Below, piece after piece: positions 3,831-45,484 of a DNA stretch of 64,000 nt. Position 1 is the first letter of the stretch. Every line of letters begins with the position of its first letter. The translations under genes and the position numbers were made by a program. The DNA comes from Escherichia coli (lineage in GTDB: Bacteria; Pseudomonadota; Gammaproteobacteria; Enterobacterales; Enterobacteriaceae): assembly GCF_013122565.1 (NCBI RefSeq), contig NZ_CP053258.1; one strand, written 5' to 3'. The notes beneath the pieces are model-generated. The model searched no databases, was not told the origin of the DNA, and was given only the letters and a program-made list of their open reading frames with translations.

Positions 3831-3932
3831 TTGTTATCTCCTCTGTTTTGGTAGACAGTACCCGACACGGAACATTTAAAAAAATGAATGTTTTTACATT
3901 CTAAATTCGATATTTTCGATAGGTTTGGGGTT

Positions 3933-4814
3933 ATGGATCTGCGCCGTTTTATTACGCTTAAAACCGTGGTGGAAGAGGGTTCCTTTTTGCGTGCTTCGCA
4001 AAAATTGTGCTGCACACAATCGACGGTGACTTTTCATATTCAGCAGCTTGAGCAGGAGTTCTCGGTACAGTTATTTGAGAAAATTGGCCGACGGATGTGC
4101 CTCACTCGCGAAGGTAAAAAGCTGCTGCCGCACATTTATGAACTCACCAGAGTGATGGATACCCTTCGTGAGGCTGCCAAAAAAGAGTCGGATCCGGACG
4201 GGGAGCTGCGCGTTGTTTCGGGCGAAACGTTGCTCTCTTACCGAATGCCGCAGGTGTTGCAGCGTTTTCGGCAACGCGCACCAAAAGTACGTTTATCGTT
4301 GCAGTCACTGAACTGTTACGTGATCCGTGATGCGCTACTGAATGATGAGGCCGATGTCGGAGTTTTTTATCGCGTAGGGAATGATGATGCTCTGAACCGA
4401 CGAGAGTTGGGTGAACAATCGCTGGTGCTGGTGGCTTCACCGCAAATTGCAGATGTCGATTTTACTGAGCCGGGAAGACATAACGCCTGTAGTTTTATAA
4501 TCAATGAACCGCAATGTGTCTTCCGGCAGATATTTGAGAGCACGCTGCGCCAGCGACGGATCACGGTGGAAAACACCATTGAGCTTATAAGTATCGAAAG
4601 CATCAAGCGTTGTGTCGCGGCGAATATCGGGGTCAGTTACTTACCGCGTTTTGCGGTGGTAAAAGAGTTGGAGTGCGGAGAATTAATTGAATTGCCTTTT
4701 GGCGAACAGTCGCAGACCATTACGGCAATGTGCGCACACCATGCTGGAAAAGCGGTTAGCCCGGCGATGCACACTTTTATTCAGTGTGTTGAAGAGAGTT
4801 TTGTGGCTGGATAA
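3933..4814 (+). CDS. yfiE: LysR-family transcriptional regulator
   Basis: ORF track 3888..4814; ATG at 3933 (MDLRRFITLKTVVEEGSF...) gives 293 aa; N-terminal HTH typical of LysR regulators; divergent from eamB. Confidence 0.9.
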   Translation: MDLRRFITLKTVVEEGSFLRASQKLCCTQSTVTFHIQQLEQEFSVQLFEKIGRRMCLTREGKKLLPHIYELTRVMDTLREAAKKESDPDGELRVVSGETLLSYRMPQVLQRFRQRAPKVRLSLQSLNCYVIRDALLNDEADVGVFYRVGNDDALNRRELGEQSLVLVASPQIADVDFTEPGRHNACSFIINEPQCVFRQIFESTLRQRRITVENTIELISIESIKRCVAANIGVSYLPRFAVVKELECGELIELPFGEQSQTITAMCAHHAGKAVSPAMHTFIQCVEESFVAG

Positions 4815-4872
4815 AAATAATGTCGGGATTAAACCCGGCATTTAACTTGTCGACAAAGTGCGCTTTATTCAT

Positions 4873-4970
4873 GCCGGATGCGGCGTGAACGCCTTATCCG
4901 GCCTACAAGATCGTGCAAATTCAATATATTGCATGAGCCACGTAGGCCTGATAAGCGTAGCGCATCAGGC
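4873..4970. repeat. BIME (two inverted REP elements)
   Basis: GCCGGATGCGGCGTGAACGCCTTATCCGGCCTAC and GTAGGCCTGATAAGCGTAGCGCATCAGGC, canonical REP palindromes between convergent yfiE and srmB. Confidence 0.9.
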
Positions 4971-5022
4971 AGTTTTGCGTTTGCCAGCACTTTTAATACC
5001 AGGCTTAAACCCGGCATTGAGA

Positions 5023-6357
5023 TTACTCTTCTGTCGTTTGCGGTGGCACGCCCGTTCCGCTTGGTTTACGGCGCTTACCAATATTTTTGGTGTCGCGATG
5101 GCGTTTTTTCACCCGCGGCTTCTCTTTCTCTTTAGCTTTTTTCTTCTCGGCGCGTTTTGCCAGTACTTTCTTCGATGGCTTGCCGGTCTGCTTCTCGCTT
5201 GGCGCACGCGTTTTCGGGCGTAACTCATCAATTACGCGAGCTTTAATTGGCTCTTCAATATAGCGACCAACTTTGCCCAGCAGCAGATGGTCATGGGCTT
5301 CTACCAGCGAAATTGCGGTGCCTTTACGACCGGCGCGCGCGGTACGTCCGATACGGTGCAAATAAGTATCGCCACTGCGCGGCATATCGAAGTTAAAGAC
5401 GTGGCTGACGTCAGGAATGTCGATACCGCGCGCGGCAACATCGGTTGCAACCAGTACGTTTACGCGACCTTCGGTCAAACGCTTGATCGCTTCGTTACGC
5501 TTGCCTTGTACCATCTCACCTTCGAGATAGCAGTTGTTGATGCCCGCTTCGCGCAGCCAGTTTGCCAGCTCATGCACACGTTCACGCTTACGCACAAACA
5601 CAATTGAGCGGGTCGCTTCCGGCTGTTTTAACAGATGCACCAGCAACGCGGTTTTATGCTCAAGATCATCGGCACGGTAATACCACTGATGAATTTTTTT
5701 GCGCTCACGGGTGGACGGATTGGCAGAAACTTCCACCGGATCTTCCAGCAGACGCTCGGCAAAGTCCTGAATCGCATCGCCTTCCAGCGTTGCCGAAAAG
5801 AGCAGGGTCTGTTTACGCCAGCGCGTTTCGCCAGCAATATGCTCGATATCCTGAGCGAAGCCCATATCCAGCATACGGTCTGCTTCGTCGAGGATCAGCG
5901 TTTCAACCGCGCGGCAATCGAAGTTCTCTTCTTTTATGTATTGCAGCAGACGTCCGGTCGTGGCGACCACGATGTCCTGATTTTCGCTGAACACTTCCGC
6001 GTGGTTCATATAGGCTACGCCGCCGGTGATGGTGGCGATATCCAGATGCGTATGTTTCGCCAGTTCGCGGGCATGATCGGCTACCTGCATCGCCAGCTCG
6101 CGAGTTGGGGTGAGGATCAAAATACGCGGCGGACCGGATTTCTTACGTGGGAAATCGAGCAGGTGCTGCAACGCTGGCAGCAGATACGCCGCCGTTTTAC
6201 CGGTGCCTGTCGGCGCAGAACCGAGTACATCACGGCCATCGAGCGCAGGCGGAATGGCGGCAGCCTGAATGGCGGTCGGGCGAGTGAAACCTTTATCCTG
6301 GAGGGCTTCCAGCAGGCTTTCGTCGAGTTCAAGTTCGGAAAAAGTCGTTACAGTCAT
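5023..6357 (-). CDS. srmB: ATP-dependent DEAD-box RNA helicase
   Basis: 444-aa ORF with DEAD-box helicase motifs ([25 protein letters not shown]) and a Lys/Arg-rich C-terminal tail. Confidence 0.96.
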
Positions 6358-27610: not shown

Positions 27611-27641
27611 GCCCGGATGAGGCATTCACGCCGCATCCGGC
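27611..27641. repeat. REP element downstream of purL
   Basis: GCCCGGATGAGGCATTCACGCCGCATCCGGC, canonical REP palindrome. Confidence 0.85.
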
Positions 27642-33753: not shown

Positions 33754-35007
33754 ATGTTAAAGCGTGAAATGAACATTGCCGATTATGATGCCGAACTGTG
33801 GCAGGCTATGGAGCAGGAAAAAGTACGTCAGGAAGAGCACATCGAACTGATCGCCTCCGAAAACTACACCAGCCCGCGCGTAATGCAGGCGCAGGGTTCT
33901 CAGCTGACCAACAAATATGCTGAAGGTTATCCGGGCAAACGCTACTACGGCGGTTGCGAGTATGTTGATATTGTTGAACAACTGGCGATCGATCGTGCGA
34001 AAGAACTGTTCGGCGCTGACTACGCTAACGTCCAGCCGCACTCCGGCTCCCAGGCTAACTTTGCGGTCTACACCGCGCTGCTGGAACCAGGTGATACCGT
34101 TCTGGGTATGAACCTGGCGCATGGCGGTCACCTGACTCACGGTTCTCCGGTTAACTTCTCCGGTAAACTGTACAACATCGTTCCTTACGGTATTGATGCT
34201 ACCGGTCATATCGACTACGCCGATCTGGAAAAACAAGCCAAAGAACACAAGCCGAAAATGATTATCGGTGGTTTCTCTGCATATTCCGGCGTGGTTGACT
34301 GGGCGAAAATGCGTGAAATCGCTGACAGCATCGGTGCTTACCTGTTTGTTGATATGGCGCACGTTGCGGGCCTGGTTGCTGCTGGCGTCTACCCGAACCC
34401 GGTTCCTCATGCTCACGTTGTTACTACCACCACTCACAAAACCCTGGCGGGTCCGCGCGGCGGCCTGATCCTGGCGAAAGGTGGTAGCGAAGAGCTGTAC
34501 AAAAAACTGAACTCTGCCGTTTTCCCTGGTGGTCAGGGCGGTCCGTTGATGCACGTAATCGCCGGTAAAGCGGTTGCTCTGAAAGAAGCGATGGAGCCTG
34601 AGTTCAAAACTTACCAGCAGCAGGTCGCTAAAAACGCTAAAGCGATGGTAGAAGTGTTCCTGGAACGCGGCTACAAAGTGGTTTCCGGCGGTACTGATAA
34701 CCATCTGTTCCTGGTTGATCTGGTAGATAAAAACCTGACCGGTAAAGAAGCAGACGCCGCTCTGGGCCGTGCTAACATCACCGTCAACAAAAACAGCGTA
34801 CCGAACGATCCGAAGAGCCCGTTTGTGACCTCCGGTATTCGCGTGGGTACTCCGGCAATTACGCGTCGCGGCTTCAAAGAAGCAGAAGCGAAAGAACTGG
34901 CTGGCTGGATGTGTGACGTGCTGGACAGCATCAATGATGAAGCCGTTATCGAGCGCATCAAAGGTAAAGTTCTCGACATCTGCGCACGTTACCCGGTTTA
35001 CGCATAA
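33754..35007 (+). CDS. glyA: Serine hydroxymethyltransferase
   Basis: ORF track 33748..35007; ATG at 33754 ([22 protein letters not shown]...) gives 417 aa; PLP-lysine motif [14 protein letters not shown]. Confidence 0.98.
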
Positions 35008-35050
35008 GCGAAACGGTGATTTGCTGACAATGTGCTCGTTGTTCATGTTG

Positions 35051-35144
35051 GATGCGGCATGAACACCTTCTCAGGCCTACAAAATCTTGCAAATTCAATA
35101 TACTGCAATCTCCGTGTAGGCCTGATAAGCGCAGCGCATCAGGC
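35051..35144. repeat. BIME (two inverted REP elements) between glyA and yphH
   Basis: GATGCGGCATGAACACCTTCTCAGGCCTAC and GTAGGCCTGATAAGCGCAGCGCATCAGGC. Confidence 0.85.
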
Positions 35145-35204
35145 AATTTTTCGTTTATGATCATCAAGGCTTCCTTCGGGAAGCCTTTCTACGTTATCGC
35201 GCCA

Positions 35205-45444: not shown

Positions 45445-45454
45445 TTTATAAAAT

Positions 45455-45484
45455 GCCGGATAAGGCGTTCACGCCGCATCCGGC
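45455..45484. repeat. REP element between yphB and yphA
   Basis: GCCGGATAAGGCGTTCACGCCGCATCCGGC canonical REP palindrome. Confidence 0.85.

What the first reader, a model, noticed from the sequence alone, without database searches (positions are those of the whole stretch)
4829..5018. 14-bp direct repeat flanking the yfiE-srmB BIME
TTAAACCCGGCATT occurs at 4829-4842 and again at 5005-5018, bracketing the two REP palindromes (4873-4970). Short direct repeats flanking a REP cluster could mark a duplication created on insertion or expansion of the BIME. Alternatively each copy may be part of the terminator hairpin of one of the two convergent genes.
Basis: seen in the sequence. Interest (0 to 1): 0.25.

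Follow-up and report, generated by a model that had tools for sequence, protein, structure and literature searches.

The report
Terminator hairpin duplicated around BIME-1 insertion
The 14-base repeat is the intact part of a 25-base copy of the srmB/yfiE terminator hairpin that was duplicated when a 151-base BIME-1 repeat element landed there; strains without the element carry one hairpin, and the same footprint brackets many other BIME-1 copies, which gives a clue to how these elements insert.

Summary
TTAAACCCGGCATT is exact at 4829-4842 and 5005-5018. It is the conserved 3' part of a 25-nt direct repeat (4818-4842 / 4994-5018, 21/25 identical). Each copy is a 9-bp-stem hairpin.

The repeats bracket a complete 151-bp BIME-1 (A-Y-L-Z1-B, 4843-4993).

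- Of 5,426 complete E. coli genomes, 2,524 carry this filled allele.
- About 45% carry an allele exactly 176 bp shorter, with one perfect hairpin (TAATGCCGGGCTTAAACCCGGCATT) in a 32-bp spacer.
- E. albertii, Citrobacter and most other Enterobacteriaceae sampled also have a single hairpin, so the empty state is ancestral.
- Two strains carry the predicted products of recombination between the two copies.
- One Escherichia species has two BIME-1 units and three hairpins.

The pattern is general. Nine of 15 other complete BIME-1 loci show a locus-specific hairpin duplicated at both ends. Four of four informative loci have single-hairpin empty alleles.

I infer structure-directed insertion with staggered breaks at the two feet of the hairpin. 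The enzyme is not shown. I found no description of this footprint in the papers I could read, but key 1990s papers were not available.

The parts
3888..4814 (+). yfiE (LysR-family regulator), stop codon TAA at 4812-4814
   Evidence: ORF list. LysR-family matches, all below the equivalog cut-offs. RefSeq annotation of matching genomes names it yfiE.
4818..4842 (.). Copy 1 of the duplicated terminator hairpin, TAATGTCGGGATTAAACCCGGCATT. Arms 4819-4827 and 4834-4842, loop 4828-4833. It differs from the ancestral hairpin by C>T at 4823 and C>A at 4828. It keeps the A-run on its left, which is the U-run of the - strand transcript.
   Evidence: RNA fold -17.0 kcal/mol on + and -9.3 on - (51-nt contexts).
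4829..4842 (+). First copy of the reported exact 14-mer (5 loop bases plus the right arm of hairpin copy 1)
4843..4872 (+). Left external motif of the BIME-1 (called 'A' here from memory of the Gilson/Bachellier nomenclature), TAACTTGTCGACAAAGTGCGCTTTATTCAT. It is a diverged form of the consensus (T)CAGATTGTTGACAAAGTGCGC.
   Evidence: Homology with other BIME-1 copies starts at 4847. Consensus of 20 left ends.
4873..4906 (+). Y-type palindromic unit (REP), GCCGGATGCGGCGTGAACGCCTTATCCGGCCTAC
   Evidence: The same unit is found in all sampled BIME-1 copies. It is the IS1397 insertion site in IAI39 and CB6837.
4907..4941 (+). L linker of BIME-1 with an IHF-site-like ATTCAATATATTG (one mismatch to WATCAANNNNTTR, a consensus recalled from memory). 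It coincides with the Rfam ES036/CssrF match at 4907-4949.
   Evidence: exact L core. (RF02751, 49.9 bits against a gathering score of 37.6). IHF binding was not tested.
4942..4970 (+). Z1-type palindromic unit (REP) in inverted orientation, GTAGGCCTGATAAGCGTAGCGCATCAGGC
   Evidence: It is interrupted by IS621 in the O121 strain WL1277, where the match to the window ends at 4945.
4971..4993 (+). Right external motif of the BIME-1 ('B'), AGTTTTGCGTTTGCCAGCACTTT. It is a diverged form of the consensus GCGTTTGTCATCAGTCTCA and an inverted repeat of the left motif.
   Evidence: Homology with other copies runs to 4998. Consensus of 19 right ends.
4994..5018 (.). Copy 2 of the duplicated terminator hairpin, TAATACCAGGCTTAAACCCGGCATT. 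Arms 4995-5003 and 5010-5018. It differs from the ancestral hairpin by G>A at 4998 and 5001. It lies 4 nt from the srmB stop codon.
   Evidence: RNA fold -15.9 kcal/mol on - and -7.1 on +.
5005..5018 (+). Second copy of the reported exact 14-mer
5023..6357 (-). srmB (DEAD-box RNA helicase), stop codon at 5023-5025

Best explanation
What is shown. The ancestral yfiE-srmB spacer was about 32 bp. It held one palindromic stem-loop, TAATGCCGGGCTTAAACCCGGCATT, with an A-run on one side and a T-rich tail on the other. This is the intrinsic terminator of srmB and a hairpin at the 3' end of yfiE. A complete 151-bp BIME-1 (left motif, Y REP, IHF-type linker, Z1 REP, right motif) was inserted there once. 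The whole stem-loop was duplicated in direct orientation, giving hairpin-BIME-1-hairpin. The reported 14-mer is the stretch of the two copies that has not mutated since. The two copies then served as substrates for recombination or slippage. That produced precise loss of the element in HH97 and Z1322HEC0006 and tandem gain in Escherichia sp. E1V33 (two units, three hairpins).

What is inferred. Insertion is directed by DNA structure, not sequence. The target palindrome is opened as a hairpin on each strand. One break is made at the equivalent foot of the hairpin on each strand, so the breaks are staggered by the length of the palindrome. The element is joined in and gap filling copies the hairpin, giving a target-site duplication as long as the hairpin. 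The REP-associated Y1 transposase (TnpA-REP/RAYT) is the obvious candidate enzyme, but nothing here shows that. My estimates: duplication coupled to BIME-1 insertion about 0.9; staggered breaks at the hairpin feet about 0.4; RAYT as the enzyme about 0.3.
For: - Empty alleles: 2,524 of 5,426 genomes carry the 551-bp filled allele. About 45% of sampled rows carry a 375-bp allele, shorter by exactly the 176-bp repeat spacing. These alleles hold one perfect palindrome.
- Polarity: E. albertii, E. coli L006, Citrobacter species with yfiE (spacer 16-19 bp) and most of the other Enterobacteriaceae loci sampled have a single hairpin right after the srmB stop.
- Terminator: in the empty allele the hairpin followed by ATTTTTATCC passes the terminator scan on the srmB strand.
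- Complete element: the closest paralogous BIME-1 (fepA-entD) matches 4847-4998 at 90%. The insert therefore equals a whole BIME-1 and the repeats start at its ends.
- Single origin: the window/K-12 type, the 24A16CRGN010/IAI39 type, and the MOD1-EC7003 and E1V33 alleles all share the same junctions.
- Later recombination between the copies: the synthetic 81-nt excision product matched HH97 at 100%. Z1322HEC0006 carries the copy1/copy2 chimera TAATGTCGGGCTTAAACCCGGCATT. E1V33 has a 384-bp spacer, which is 32 + 2x176.
- Generality: of the 16 contexts with both ends recognisable (15 distinct loci), 10 (9 distinct loci) have left and right flanks that align as direct repeats, with at most 1.25% of cross-locus pairs scoring as high (null mean 5.5, 99th percentile 8.3; observed 8.5-23). 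In every case the repeat is a hairpin touching the element ends. The direct alignment score beats the inverted score in 9 of 10. Spacing is 168-177 bp.
- Empty sites at three more loci hold one hairpin: metE-ysgA, fbp and rutG-ymdF.
- Element termini are inverted repeats ending ...CAATCTGA / ...CAGTCTCA.
- TnpA-REP cuts only single-stranded DNA, on both strands of a BIME, and supercoil-driven extrusion has been proposed as a source of single strands (PMC3333891).
Against: - No enzyme or intermediate was observed. The staggered-break model is inferred from the footprint alone.
- IS200/IS605-type Y1 transposases, the relatives of RAYT, insert without sizeable target duplications (PMC2817692).
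- About 40% of complete BIME-1 copies sampled show no flank duplication, or a hairpin on one side only: tsx-yajD, glyA, fepA-entD. Either the footprint decays or not every insertion makes it.
- The BIME-1 sample came from one exact-match pattern in metagenome contigs. It favours little-diverged copies, and some contigs are from Escherichia relatives rather than E. coli.
- Within E. coli both flank haplotypes (GTGGCTGGATAA and TTGCCGGGATAA) occur in filled and in empty alleles. I cannot say which empty alleles are ancestral and which are secondary losses beyond the two proven cases.
- In the window's allele neither copy passes the simple terminator scan, so termination after insertion is not established.
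Confidence: 0.8

Rival explanations
1. Replicative template switching rather than transposase cuts. A fork stalled at the terminator palindrome lets the nascent strand copy a BIME-1 from elsewhere. The strand then re-anneals upstream of the hairpin it had already copied, which duplicates the hairpin.
For: Palindromes are known sites of stalling and template switching (general knowledge). At this locus the hairpin arm AATGCCGGG shares ATGCCGG with the head of the Y REP (CATGCCGGATG), and the right junction shares TAAT with the BIME-1 end. Direct repeats of a palindrome are also inverted repeats, and the outer arms of the two copies pair in the single-strand fold.
Against: The duplicated hairpins at other loci (CGGGTGG.., GCGGCGC.., CCCGCAGAGCGGG, AACGCCGGAGCAATCCGGCGTT) have no resemblance to REP heads or BIME-1 ends. 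Microhomology therefore cannot be the general guide. The inserted unit is always the same complete element with the same termini, which looks like defined ends rather than variable switch points.
Confidence: 0.12
2. The filled state is the original E. coli state. The repeats are simply where deletions happened, so the single-copy alleles are all secondary and the repeat says nothing about insertion.
For: Deletion between the copies does happen (HH97 and Z1322HEC0006). [quoted passage not shown] The filled allele also occurs in two non-coli Escherichia species.
Against: This does not explain how two copies of a locus-specific hairpin arose. E. albertii, Citrobacter and the wider family have one hairpin. 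None of the five possible recombinants of the present type I copies gives the common empty-site sequence GCGC at the four variable positions (sequence logic). Most empty alleles therefore are not recent deletions of that allele.
Confidence: 0.05
3. Chance or convergence. Two convergent genes each evolved a similar GC-rich terminator hairpin independently, and the 14-mer identity is coincidental.
For: GCCGGG...CCCGGC hairpins are common terminators in this family. A similar hairpin sits next to the tsx-yajD BIME-1.
Against: The 14/14 exact and 21/25 overall match includes the asymmetric loop. The length difference from the empty alleles is exactly 176 bp. The pattern recurs with unrelated hairpin sequences at nine loci.
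Confidence: 0.01
4. Two steps. The hairpin was first duplicated in tandem for unrelated reasons, and a BIME-1 later inserted between the two copies.
For: None directly. It cannot be formally excluded for a single locus.
Against: No sampled allele had two hairpins without a BIME-1; the observed spans were 375 or 551 bp plus IS-bearing variants. The same arrangement at nine or more loci with the element ends abutting the repeats would need the same coincidence each time.
Confidence: 0.02

Closest known systems
BIME-1 (also called RIP or RIB): Y REP, L linker with an IHF site, Z1 REP (Gilson 1991; Bachellier 1994; Boccard & Prentki 1993; Oppenheim 1993; summarised in PMC3333891 and PMC1187871)
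   Same: The insert 4843-4993 has the full architecture and about 90% identity to other copies. It is extragenic, sits between convergent genes, and is present or absent among strains, as reported for BIME-1. It is a target of the REP-specific IS1397 and IS621.
   Different: The feature at issue is a 20-25 bp direct duplication of the target hairpin at both ends. No description of BIME-1 that I could read mentions it. [quoted passage not shown]
REPIN/RAYT system (REP doublets mobilised by a Y1 HUH transposase; Nunvar 2010, Bertels & Rainey 2011, Ton-Hoang 2012)
   Same: The element is a REP doublet forming a long hairpin, non-autonomous and single-copy per site. Excision events are known. The candidate enzyme acts on hairpins in single-stranded DNA, on both strands.
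   Different: The related IS200/IS605 transposition leaves no sizeable target duplication (PMC2817692). The in vivo insertion mechanism of REPs is described as unknown (PMC3333891; preprint 10.64898/2026.03.23.713779). RAYT involvement was not tested here.
MITEs with terminal inverted repeats and target-site duplications (ERIC/IRU, Correia and others; PMC3184786)
   Same: Terminal inverted repeats, a flanking direct duplication, empty sites with one copy, and folding into a long stem-loop.
   Different: MITE duplications are short and of fixed length (typically 2-9 bp), set by a DDE transposase. Here the duplication varies from about 16 to 25 bp and equals a structural unit, the whole hairpin.
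REPs inserted within palindromes (Thermomicrobium roseum GTAG-23, Halothiobacillus neapolitanus CGTC-1; PMC3733652)
   Same: REP-type elements are associated with a palindromic target.
   Different: There the element splits one palindrome, so the arms flank it as inverted repeats. Here the complete palindrome is present twice in direct orientation.
Deletion and amplification between short direct repeats that flank a palindrome (slipped misalignment, largely RecA-independent; for example PMC5426353)
   Same: It explains the precise 176-bp losses (HH97, Z1322HEC0006) and the two-unit array in E1V33.
   Different: It accounts for what happened after the repeats existed, not for their origin.

Membership tests
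BIME-1 (RIP/RIB) | One Y and one Z1 palindromic unit in inverted, tail-to-tail orientation | tested here: met
   Y unit 4873-4906 and Z1 unit 4942-4970. Inverted-repeat pairs I1-I3. Exact Y consensus match.
BIME-1 (RIP/RIB) | Long conserved L linker carrying an IHF consensus | tested here: inconclusive
   The L core GTGCAAATTCAATATATTGCA is exact and shared by all 32 sampled contexts. The IHF-like ATTCAATATATTG has one mismatch to WATCAANNNNTTR. Binding cannot be tested here.
BIME-1 (RIP/RIB) | Conserved external motifs outside both REPs and homology to other genomic copies | tested here: met
   90% identity to the fepA-entD copy over 4847-4998. End consensus from 19-20 loci.
BIME-1 (RIP/RIB) | [quoted passage not shown] | tested here: met
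   It lies between the stop codons of convergent yfiE and srmB.
Mobile element with target-site duplication (MITE-like behaviour) | Direct repeat at both ends that is single-copy in the empty site | tested here: met
   for this locus. for three further loci.
Mobile element with target-site duplication (MITE-like behaviour) | Terminal inverted repeats | tested here: met
   The family consensus ends GTCAACAATCTGA / GTCATCAGTCTCAA are inverted repeats. In the window copy they are diverged.
Mobile element with target-site duplication (MITE-like behaviour) | Short duplication of fixed length set by a DDE transposase | tested here: not met
   The aligned length of the duplicated segment is 14-25 bp and differs by locus, tracking the hairpin. 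I therefore do not file it as a classical MITE.
REPIN mobilised by RAYT (TnpA-REP) | REP doublet with GTAG/CTAC tags able to fold as one long hairpin | tested here: met
   CCTAC ... GTAGG at 4902-4906 / 4942-4946. Single-strand fold -42.6 kcal/mol, z = -4.8.
REPIN mobilised by RAYT (TnpA-REP) | Dependence of movement on the cognate RAYT | not testable with these tools
   No rayT gene was looked for in this window. This needs genetics or biochemistry.
Intrinsic (Rho-independent) terminator | GC-rich stem-loop directly followed by a U-run on the transcribed strand | tested here: inconclusive
   Met by the single hairpin of the empty allele on the srmB strand. In the window's filled allele no site passes the scan: copy 2 has lost the U-run, and copy 1 keeps it but has a C.A mismatch on that strand.

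The most novel reading that the evidence does not exclude
BIME-1 elements, and perhaps REP doublets in general, integrate by recognising a DNA shape rather than a sequence. Any terminator-type palindrome can be a target. The breaks fall at the two feet of the extruded hairpin, so the whole hairpin is duplicated. This hairpin-length footprint would be the first in vivo signature of how REP/BIME elements insert. It would also explain three things: why they sit at 3' ends of genes, why they are so easily lost and amplified, and why insertion need not destroy termination (the A-run stays with one copy and the T-run with the other).
Probability: 0.35. Interest if true: 0.7.

Novelty: new variant of a known kind. 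Interest (0 to 1): 0.5.

Why it matters
REP/BIME elements are the most abundant repeats in E. coli, yet papers up to 2026 say their insertion mechanism in vivo is unknown. A reproducible footprint constrains that mechanism and makes it testable. The footprint has three parts: the whole target hairpin duplicated, a single copy in empty sites, and recombinant excision products. A defined test follows directly: a terminator hairpin as target, in strains with or without rayT. The result also has practical value. It explains a common presence/absence polymorphism of about 175 bp between E. coli strains. It shows that the flanking repeats drive both precise loss and tandem gain. It shows that insertion separates a terminator's hairpin from its U-run, which may change 3'-end formation of srmB and yfiE. 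For this particular locus taken alone, the finding is a tidy but modest example.

Tried and rejected
- Strand-specific selection on the two copies. In the window allele each copy keeps G.U pairing only in the RNA of the adjacent gene (-17.0 against -9.3, and -15.9 against -7.1 kcal/mol). In the second haplotype (L090) copy 1 has TT>CC, which preserves pairing in the opposite transcript. With three transitions the chance expectation is about 1 in 8. I do not claim selection.\n- TnpA-REP C|T cleavage sites as the element boundary. Both ends carry TCT two to three bases from the end. But the bases beyond it (TCA/TGA) are absent from empty sites, so the boundary is not at C|T.\n- Hairpin loop inversion as a mechanistic clue. 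At the fbp locus both copies have the loop inverted relative to the one empty allele examined. This is not seen at the other three loci, so it is probably an unrelated polymorphism.\n- katE-chbG as a fifth empty-site test. Strains without the BIME-1 have an unrelated spacer there, so it is uninformative.\n- Annotation look-up. The copy of NC_000913.3 available here lists no repeat features at the locus.\n- Literature. Six full-text searches and ten papers read found no description of hairpin duplication at BIME-1 ends. Bachellier 1997 (PMC1207841), Gilson 1991 (PMC333889) and Boccard & Prentki 1993 (PMC413762) are not held, so prior description cannot be excluded.\n- Rfam. The hits ES036/CssrF and naRNA4 are families built on BIME/REP sequence, not independent evidence of an sRNA here.

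Full report
**1. The observation**

TTAAACCCGGCATT is present exactly at 4829-4842 and 5005-5018 and nowhere else in the window. At up to two mismatches there are four hits against 0.63 expected, and no shuffle of 100 reaches four.

One of the extra hits is on the opposite strand and overlaps the first copy (4819-4832). That shows each copy is half of a palindrome. The repeat finder extends the match to 25 nt:
- copy 1, 4818-4842: TAATGTCGGGATTAAACCCGGCATT
- copy 2, 4994-5018: TAATACCAGGCTTAAACCCGGCATT

The copies are 21/25 identical with a start-to-start spacing of 176. Each is a hairpin with 9-nt arms and a 6-nt loop.

The flanking genes are convergent. A LysR-family gene that RefSeq calls yfiE runs 3888-4814 on the + strand. 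srmB runs 5023-6357 on the - strand. Copy 1 begins 3 nt after the yfiE stop. Copy 2 ends 4 nt before the srmB stop.

**2. What lies between the copies**

Positions 4843-4993 (151 bp) form a complete BIME-1:
- a left external motif (4843-4872)
- a Y palindromic unit (4873-4906)
- the L linker with an IHF-like site (4907-4941)
- a Z1 unit in inverted orientation (4942-4970)
- a right external motif (4971-4993)

The nearest paralogous copy in genomes that lack this one (fepA-entD) matches 4847-4998 at 90%. So the insert is a whole element and the repeats begin where the element ends. Rfam's ES036/CssrF family matches the linker. That family is BIME-1 sequence.

**3. Empty sites and polarity**

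Among 5,426 complete E. coli genomes, 2,524 hold the full 551-bp query region. In an evenly spaced sample of the ranking, about 45% of rows show a 375-bp span, exactly 176 bp shorter.

Five such alleles were aligned. Each has a 32-34-bp spacer (32 bp in four of them) with one perfect palindrome, (T/C)AATGCCGGGCTTAAACCCGGCATT.

Loci fetched from 80 species by SrmB homology gave the following:
- E. albertii has the same single hairpin.
- Citrobacter species that have yfiE have one ATGCCGGGC...GCCCGGCAT hairpin in a 16-19-bp spacer.
- Most other Enterobacteriaceae sampled have one A-run/GC-stem/T-run hairpin directly after srmB.

The single hairpin is therefore ancestral, and the hairpin-BIME-1-hairpin arrangement is derived. 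In the empty allele the hairpin followed by ATTTTTATCC passes a terminator scan on the srmB strand.

**4. Later history of the locus**

Filled alleles come in two haplotypes with identical junctions, so there was one insertion.
- Type I (the window and K-12) makes up nearly all filled genomes; 2,446 are at least 99% identical over the 201-bp core.
- Type II is rare (24A16CRGN010, IAI39, and Escherichia sp. MOD1-EC7003). Its copy 2 reads AATTCCGGG...CCCGGAATT. This is a G>T change in one arm matched by C>A in the other. MOD1-EC7003 has only the first change.

Escherichia sp. E1V33 has a 384-bp spacer (32 + 2x176) with two BIME-1 units and three perfect hairpins.

The type I copies differ at four positions. 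Recombination between them can therefore give only five products, and none equals the ancestral sequence. I searched for the most likely product, copy 1 joined to the srmB flank. It matched strain HH97 at 100% over 81 nt. Strain Z1322HEC0006 carries the chimera TAATGTCGGGCTTAAACCCGGCATT.

So the repeats mediate both precise loss and tandem gain of the 176-bp unit. In single-stranded form the outer arms of the two copies can also pair with each other around the element.

**5. The pattern is general**

An exact-pattern scan for the BIME-1 core in metagenome contigs gave 120 stretches, 104 of them usable instances falling into 32 genomic contexts.
- In 16 contexts (15 distinct loci) both element ends are recognisable.
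- In 10 of these (9 distinct loci) the 45 bp outside the left end and outside the right end align as a direct repeat, with at most 1.25% of the 240 cross-locus pairs scoring as high. The null had mean 5.5, 99th percentile 8.3 and maximum 11.5. Observed scores were 8.5-23.
- Every such repeat is a locus-specific hairpin abutting the element, in the form hairpin|(T)CAGATTG...CAGTCTCA|hairpin. One further case (L113) is evident by eye.
- The direct alignment beats the inverted one in 9 of 10 loci, with one tie.
- Start-to-start spacing is 168-177 bp.

Empty alleles with one hairpin were found at all three further loci where the comparison was possible:

| Locus | Empty allele | Filled allele |
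|---|---|---|
| metE-ysgA | one copy of CCGGGTGGTATTACCACCCGG | two copies of ACGGGTGG.GTT.CCACCCG |
| fbp | one copy of AACGCCGGATTGCTCCGGCGTT | two identical 22-mers |
| rutG-ymdF | CFT073, one copy | K-12 type, two copies |

At katE-chbG the strains without the element have an unrelated spacer, so that locus is uninformative.

The A-run stays with the left copy and the T-run with the right copy. About 40% of complete copies show no duplication or a hairpin on one side only, for example tsx-yajD, glyA (in this window) and fepA-entD.

**6. Mechanism**

The following is shown. A complete BIME-1 is associated with a direct duplication of the whole target stem-loop. The unduplicated state is ancestral. 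The duplicates recombine.

The following is inferred. A duplication whose length follows the hairpin (aligned length about 14-25 bp, different at each locus) is what staggered breaks at the two feet of a palindrome would give after gap filling. That points to recognition of structure, not sequence.

The element ends are inverted repeats. TnpA-REP cleaves only single-stranded DNA, does so on both strands of a BIME, and could use extruded structures (PMC3333891). It is therefore a reasonable candidate, but nothing here tests it. Its IS200/IS605 relatives do not make sizeable target duplications (PMC2817692).

A template-switching route is the main rival. The lack of any shared microhomology among the different target hairpins argues against it.

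**7. Comparison with what is known**

The element is an ordinary BIME-1. Presence/absence of BIME-1 among strains is known (PMC1187871, citing Bachellier 1997), and so is REP targeting by IS1397 and IS621.

I could not find the hairpin-length flanking duplication described anywhere.
- Reviews state that REPs lack MITE signatures (PMC3184786).
- Mechanism papers call insertion unresolved (PMC3333891; PMC3337134; preprint 10.64898/2026.03.23.713779).
- The nearest precedent, REPs lying inside a palindrome in two other species (PMC3733652), is a different geometry.
- The key 1990s papers were not available to me, so an earlier description remains possible.

**8. Verdict**

The finding is real. 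As a single locus it is a modest, well-explained feature of a known element. Its value is that it exemplifies a reproducible insertion footprint of BIME-1 that bears on an open mechanistic question.

Scores: interest 0.5; novelty, new variant of a known kind.

Noticed in passing
L091-L210 (metagenome contigs); e.g. L119:11492-12063, L123:1142-1840, L102:2564-3262, L113:2645-3343: Many BIME-1 copies elsewhere in Escherichia genomes are bracketed by a duplicated, locus-specific terminator-like hairpin. L119 has a perfect 22-23-nt duplicate. L113 has a duplicate of about 35 nt that includes an A-run.
   Followed up: yes
L088 (E. coli IAI39, NC_011750.1 2888356-2889289) and L216 (CB6837): IS1397 (IS3 family) is inserted in the loop of the Y palindromic unit of this same yfiE-srmB BIME-1. 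This fits its reported specificity for palindromic units.
   Followed up: partly
L215 (E. coli O121 WL1277, NZ_CP193494.1 1348035-1352730); also O126:H45 MIN10 (H38): IS621 (IS110 family) lies between yfiE and srmB. The match to the window ends at 4945, inside the Z1 unit. So two different REP-targeting IS elements have hit this one BIME-1 in different lineages.
   Followed up: partly
L009 (Escherichia sp. E1V33, NZ_RHJI01000021.1), downstream of srmB: Tandem array of two nearly identical BIME-1 units separated and flanked by three perfect copies of the hairpin (spacer 384 bp = 32 + 2x176).
   Followed up: partly
L217 (HH97, NZ_CP116409.1) and L218 (Z1322HEC0006, NZ_CP148573.1), positions about 428-452: These empty alleles carry the derived substitutions of copy 1 (TAATGTCGGGATT...) or a copy1/copy2 chimera (TAATGTCGGGCTT...). 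They are secondary precise deletions of the BIME-1, one genome each out of 5,426.
   Followed up: yes
L090 (24A16CRGN010) and L088 (IAI39), hairpin copy 2: A paired change (G>T in the left arm, C>A in the right arm) keeps a perfect palindrome, AATTCCGGG...CCCGGAATT. Escherichia sp. MOD1-EC7003 (L008) has only the first change. This is either selection on the hairpin or palindrome-templated correction.
   Followed up: no
window 35017-35188: A second, more diverged BIME-1 lies downstream of the 419-aa ORF ending at 35007 (probably glyA, by its C-terminal sequence). It is followed on the right only by a hairpin, AAGGCTTCCTTCGGGAAGCCTT (35167-35188). There is no matching copy on the left.
   Followed up: partly
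window 45451-45484 (- strand) and 27629-27641 (- strand): A lone Y-type REP lies between an A-run and a T-rich tail (AAAATGCCGGATAAGGCGTTCACGCCGCATCCGGCATCTTT). A further REP head match lies at 27629-27641. No flanking duplication is evident at the first; the second was not examined.
   Followed up: no
window 4907-4949 (+): The Rfam family ES036 (CssrF 'sRNA', RF02751) matches above its gathering score, but the match is the L linker of BIME-1. That family therefore appears to describe a repeated-element segment.
   Followed up: no
L089 (E. coli BS-04, NZ_CP172819.1), inside the Z1 unit: A run of about 100 T interrupts the BIME-1 at the start of Z1. It is probably an assembly or sequencing artefact.
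   Followed up: no
L214 against L119 (fbp downstream hairpin): The hairpin loop is inverted (GGATTGCTCC against GGAGCAATCC) between the empty allele and both copies of the filled allele. This was not seen at the other three loci.
   Followed up: no
NZ_CP026085.1 ('DH5alpha', hit H177): This record, labelled DH5alpha (4.83 Mb), has the empty yfiE-srmB allele, whereas K-12 strains carry the BIME-1. The strain label may be wrong.
   Followed up: no
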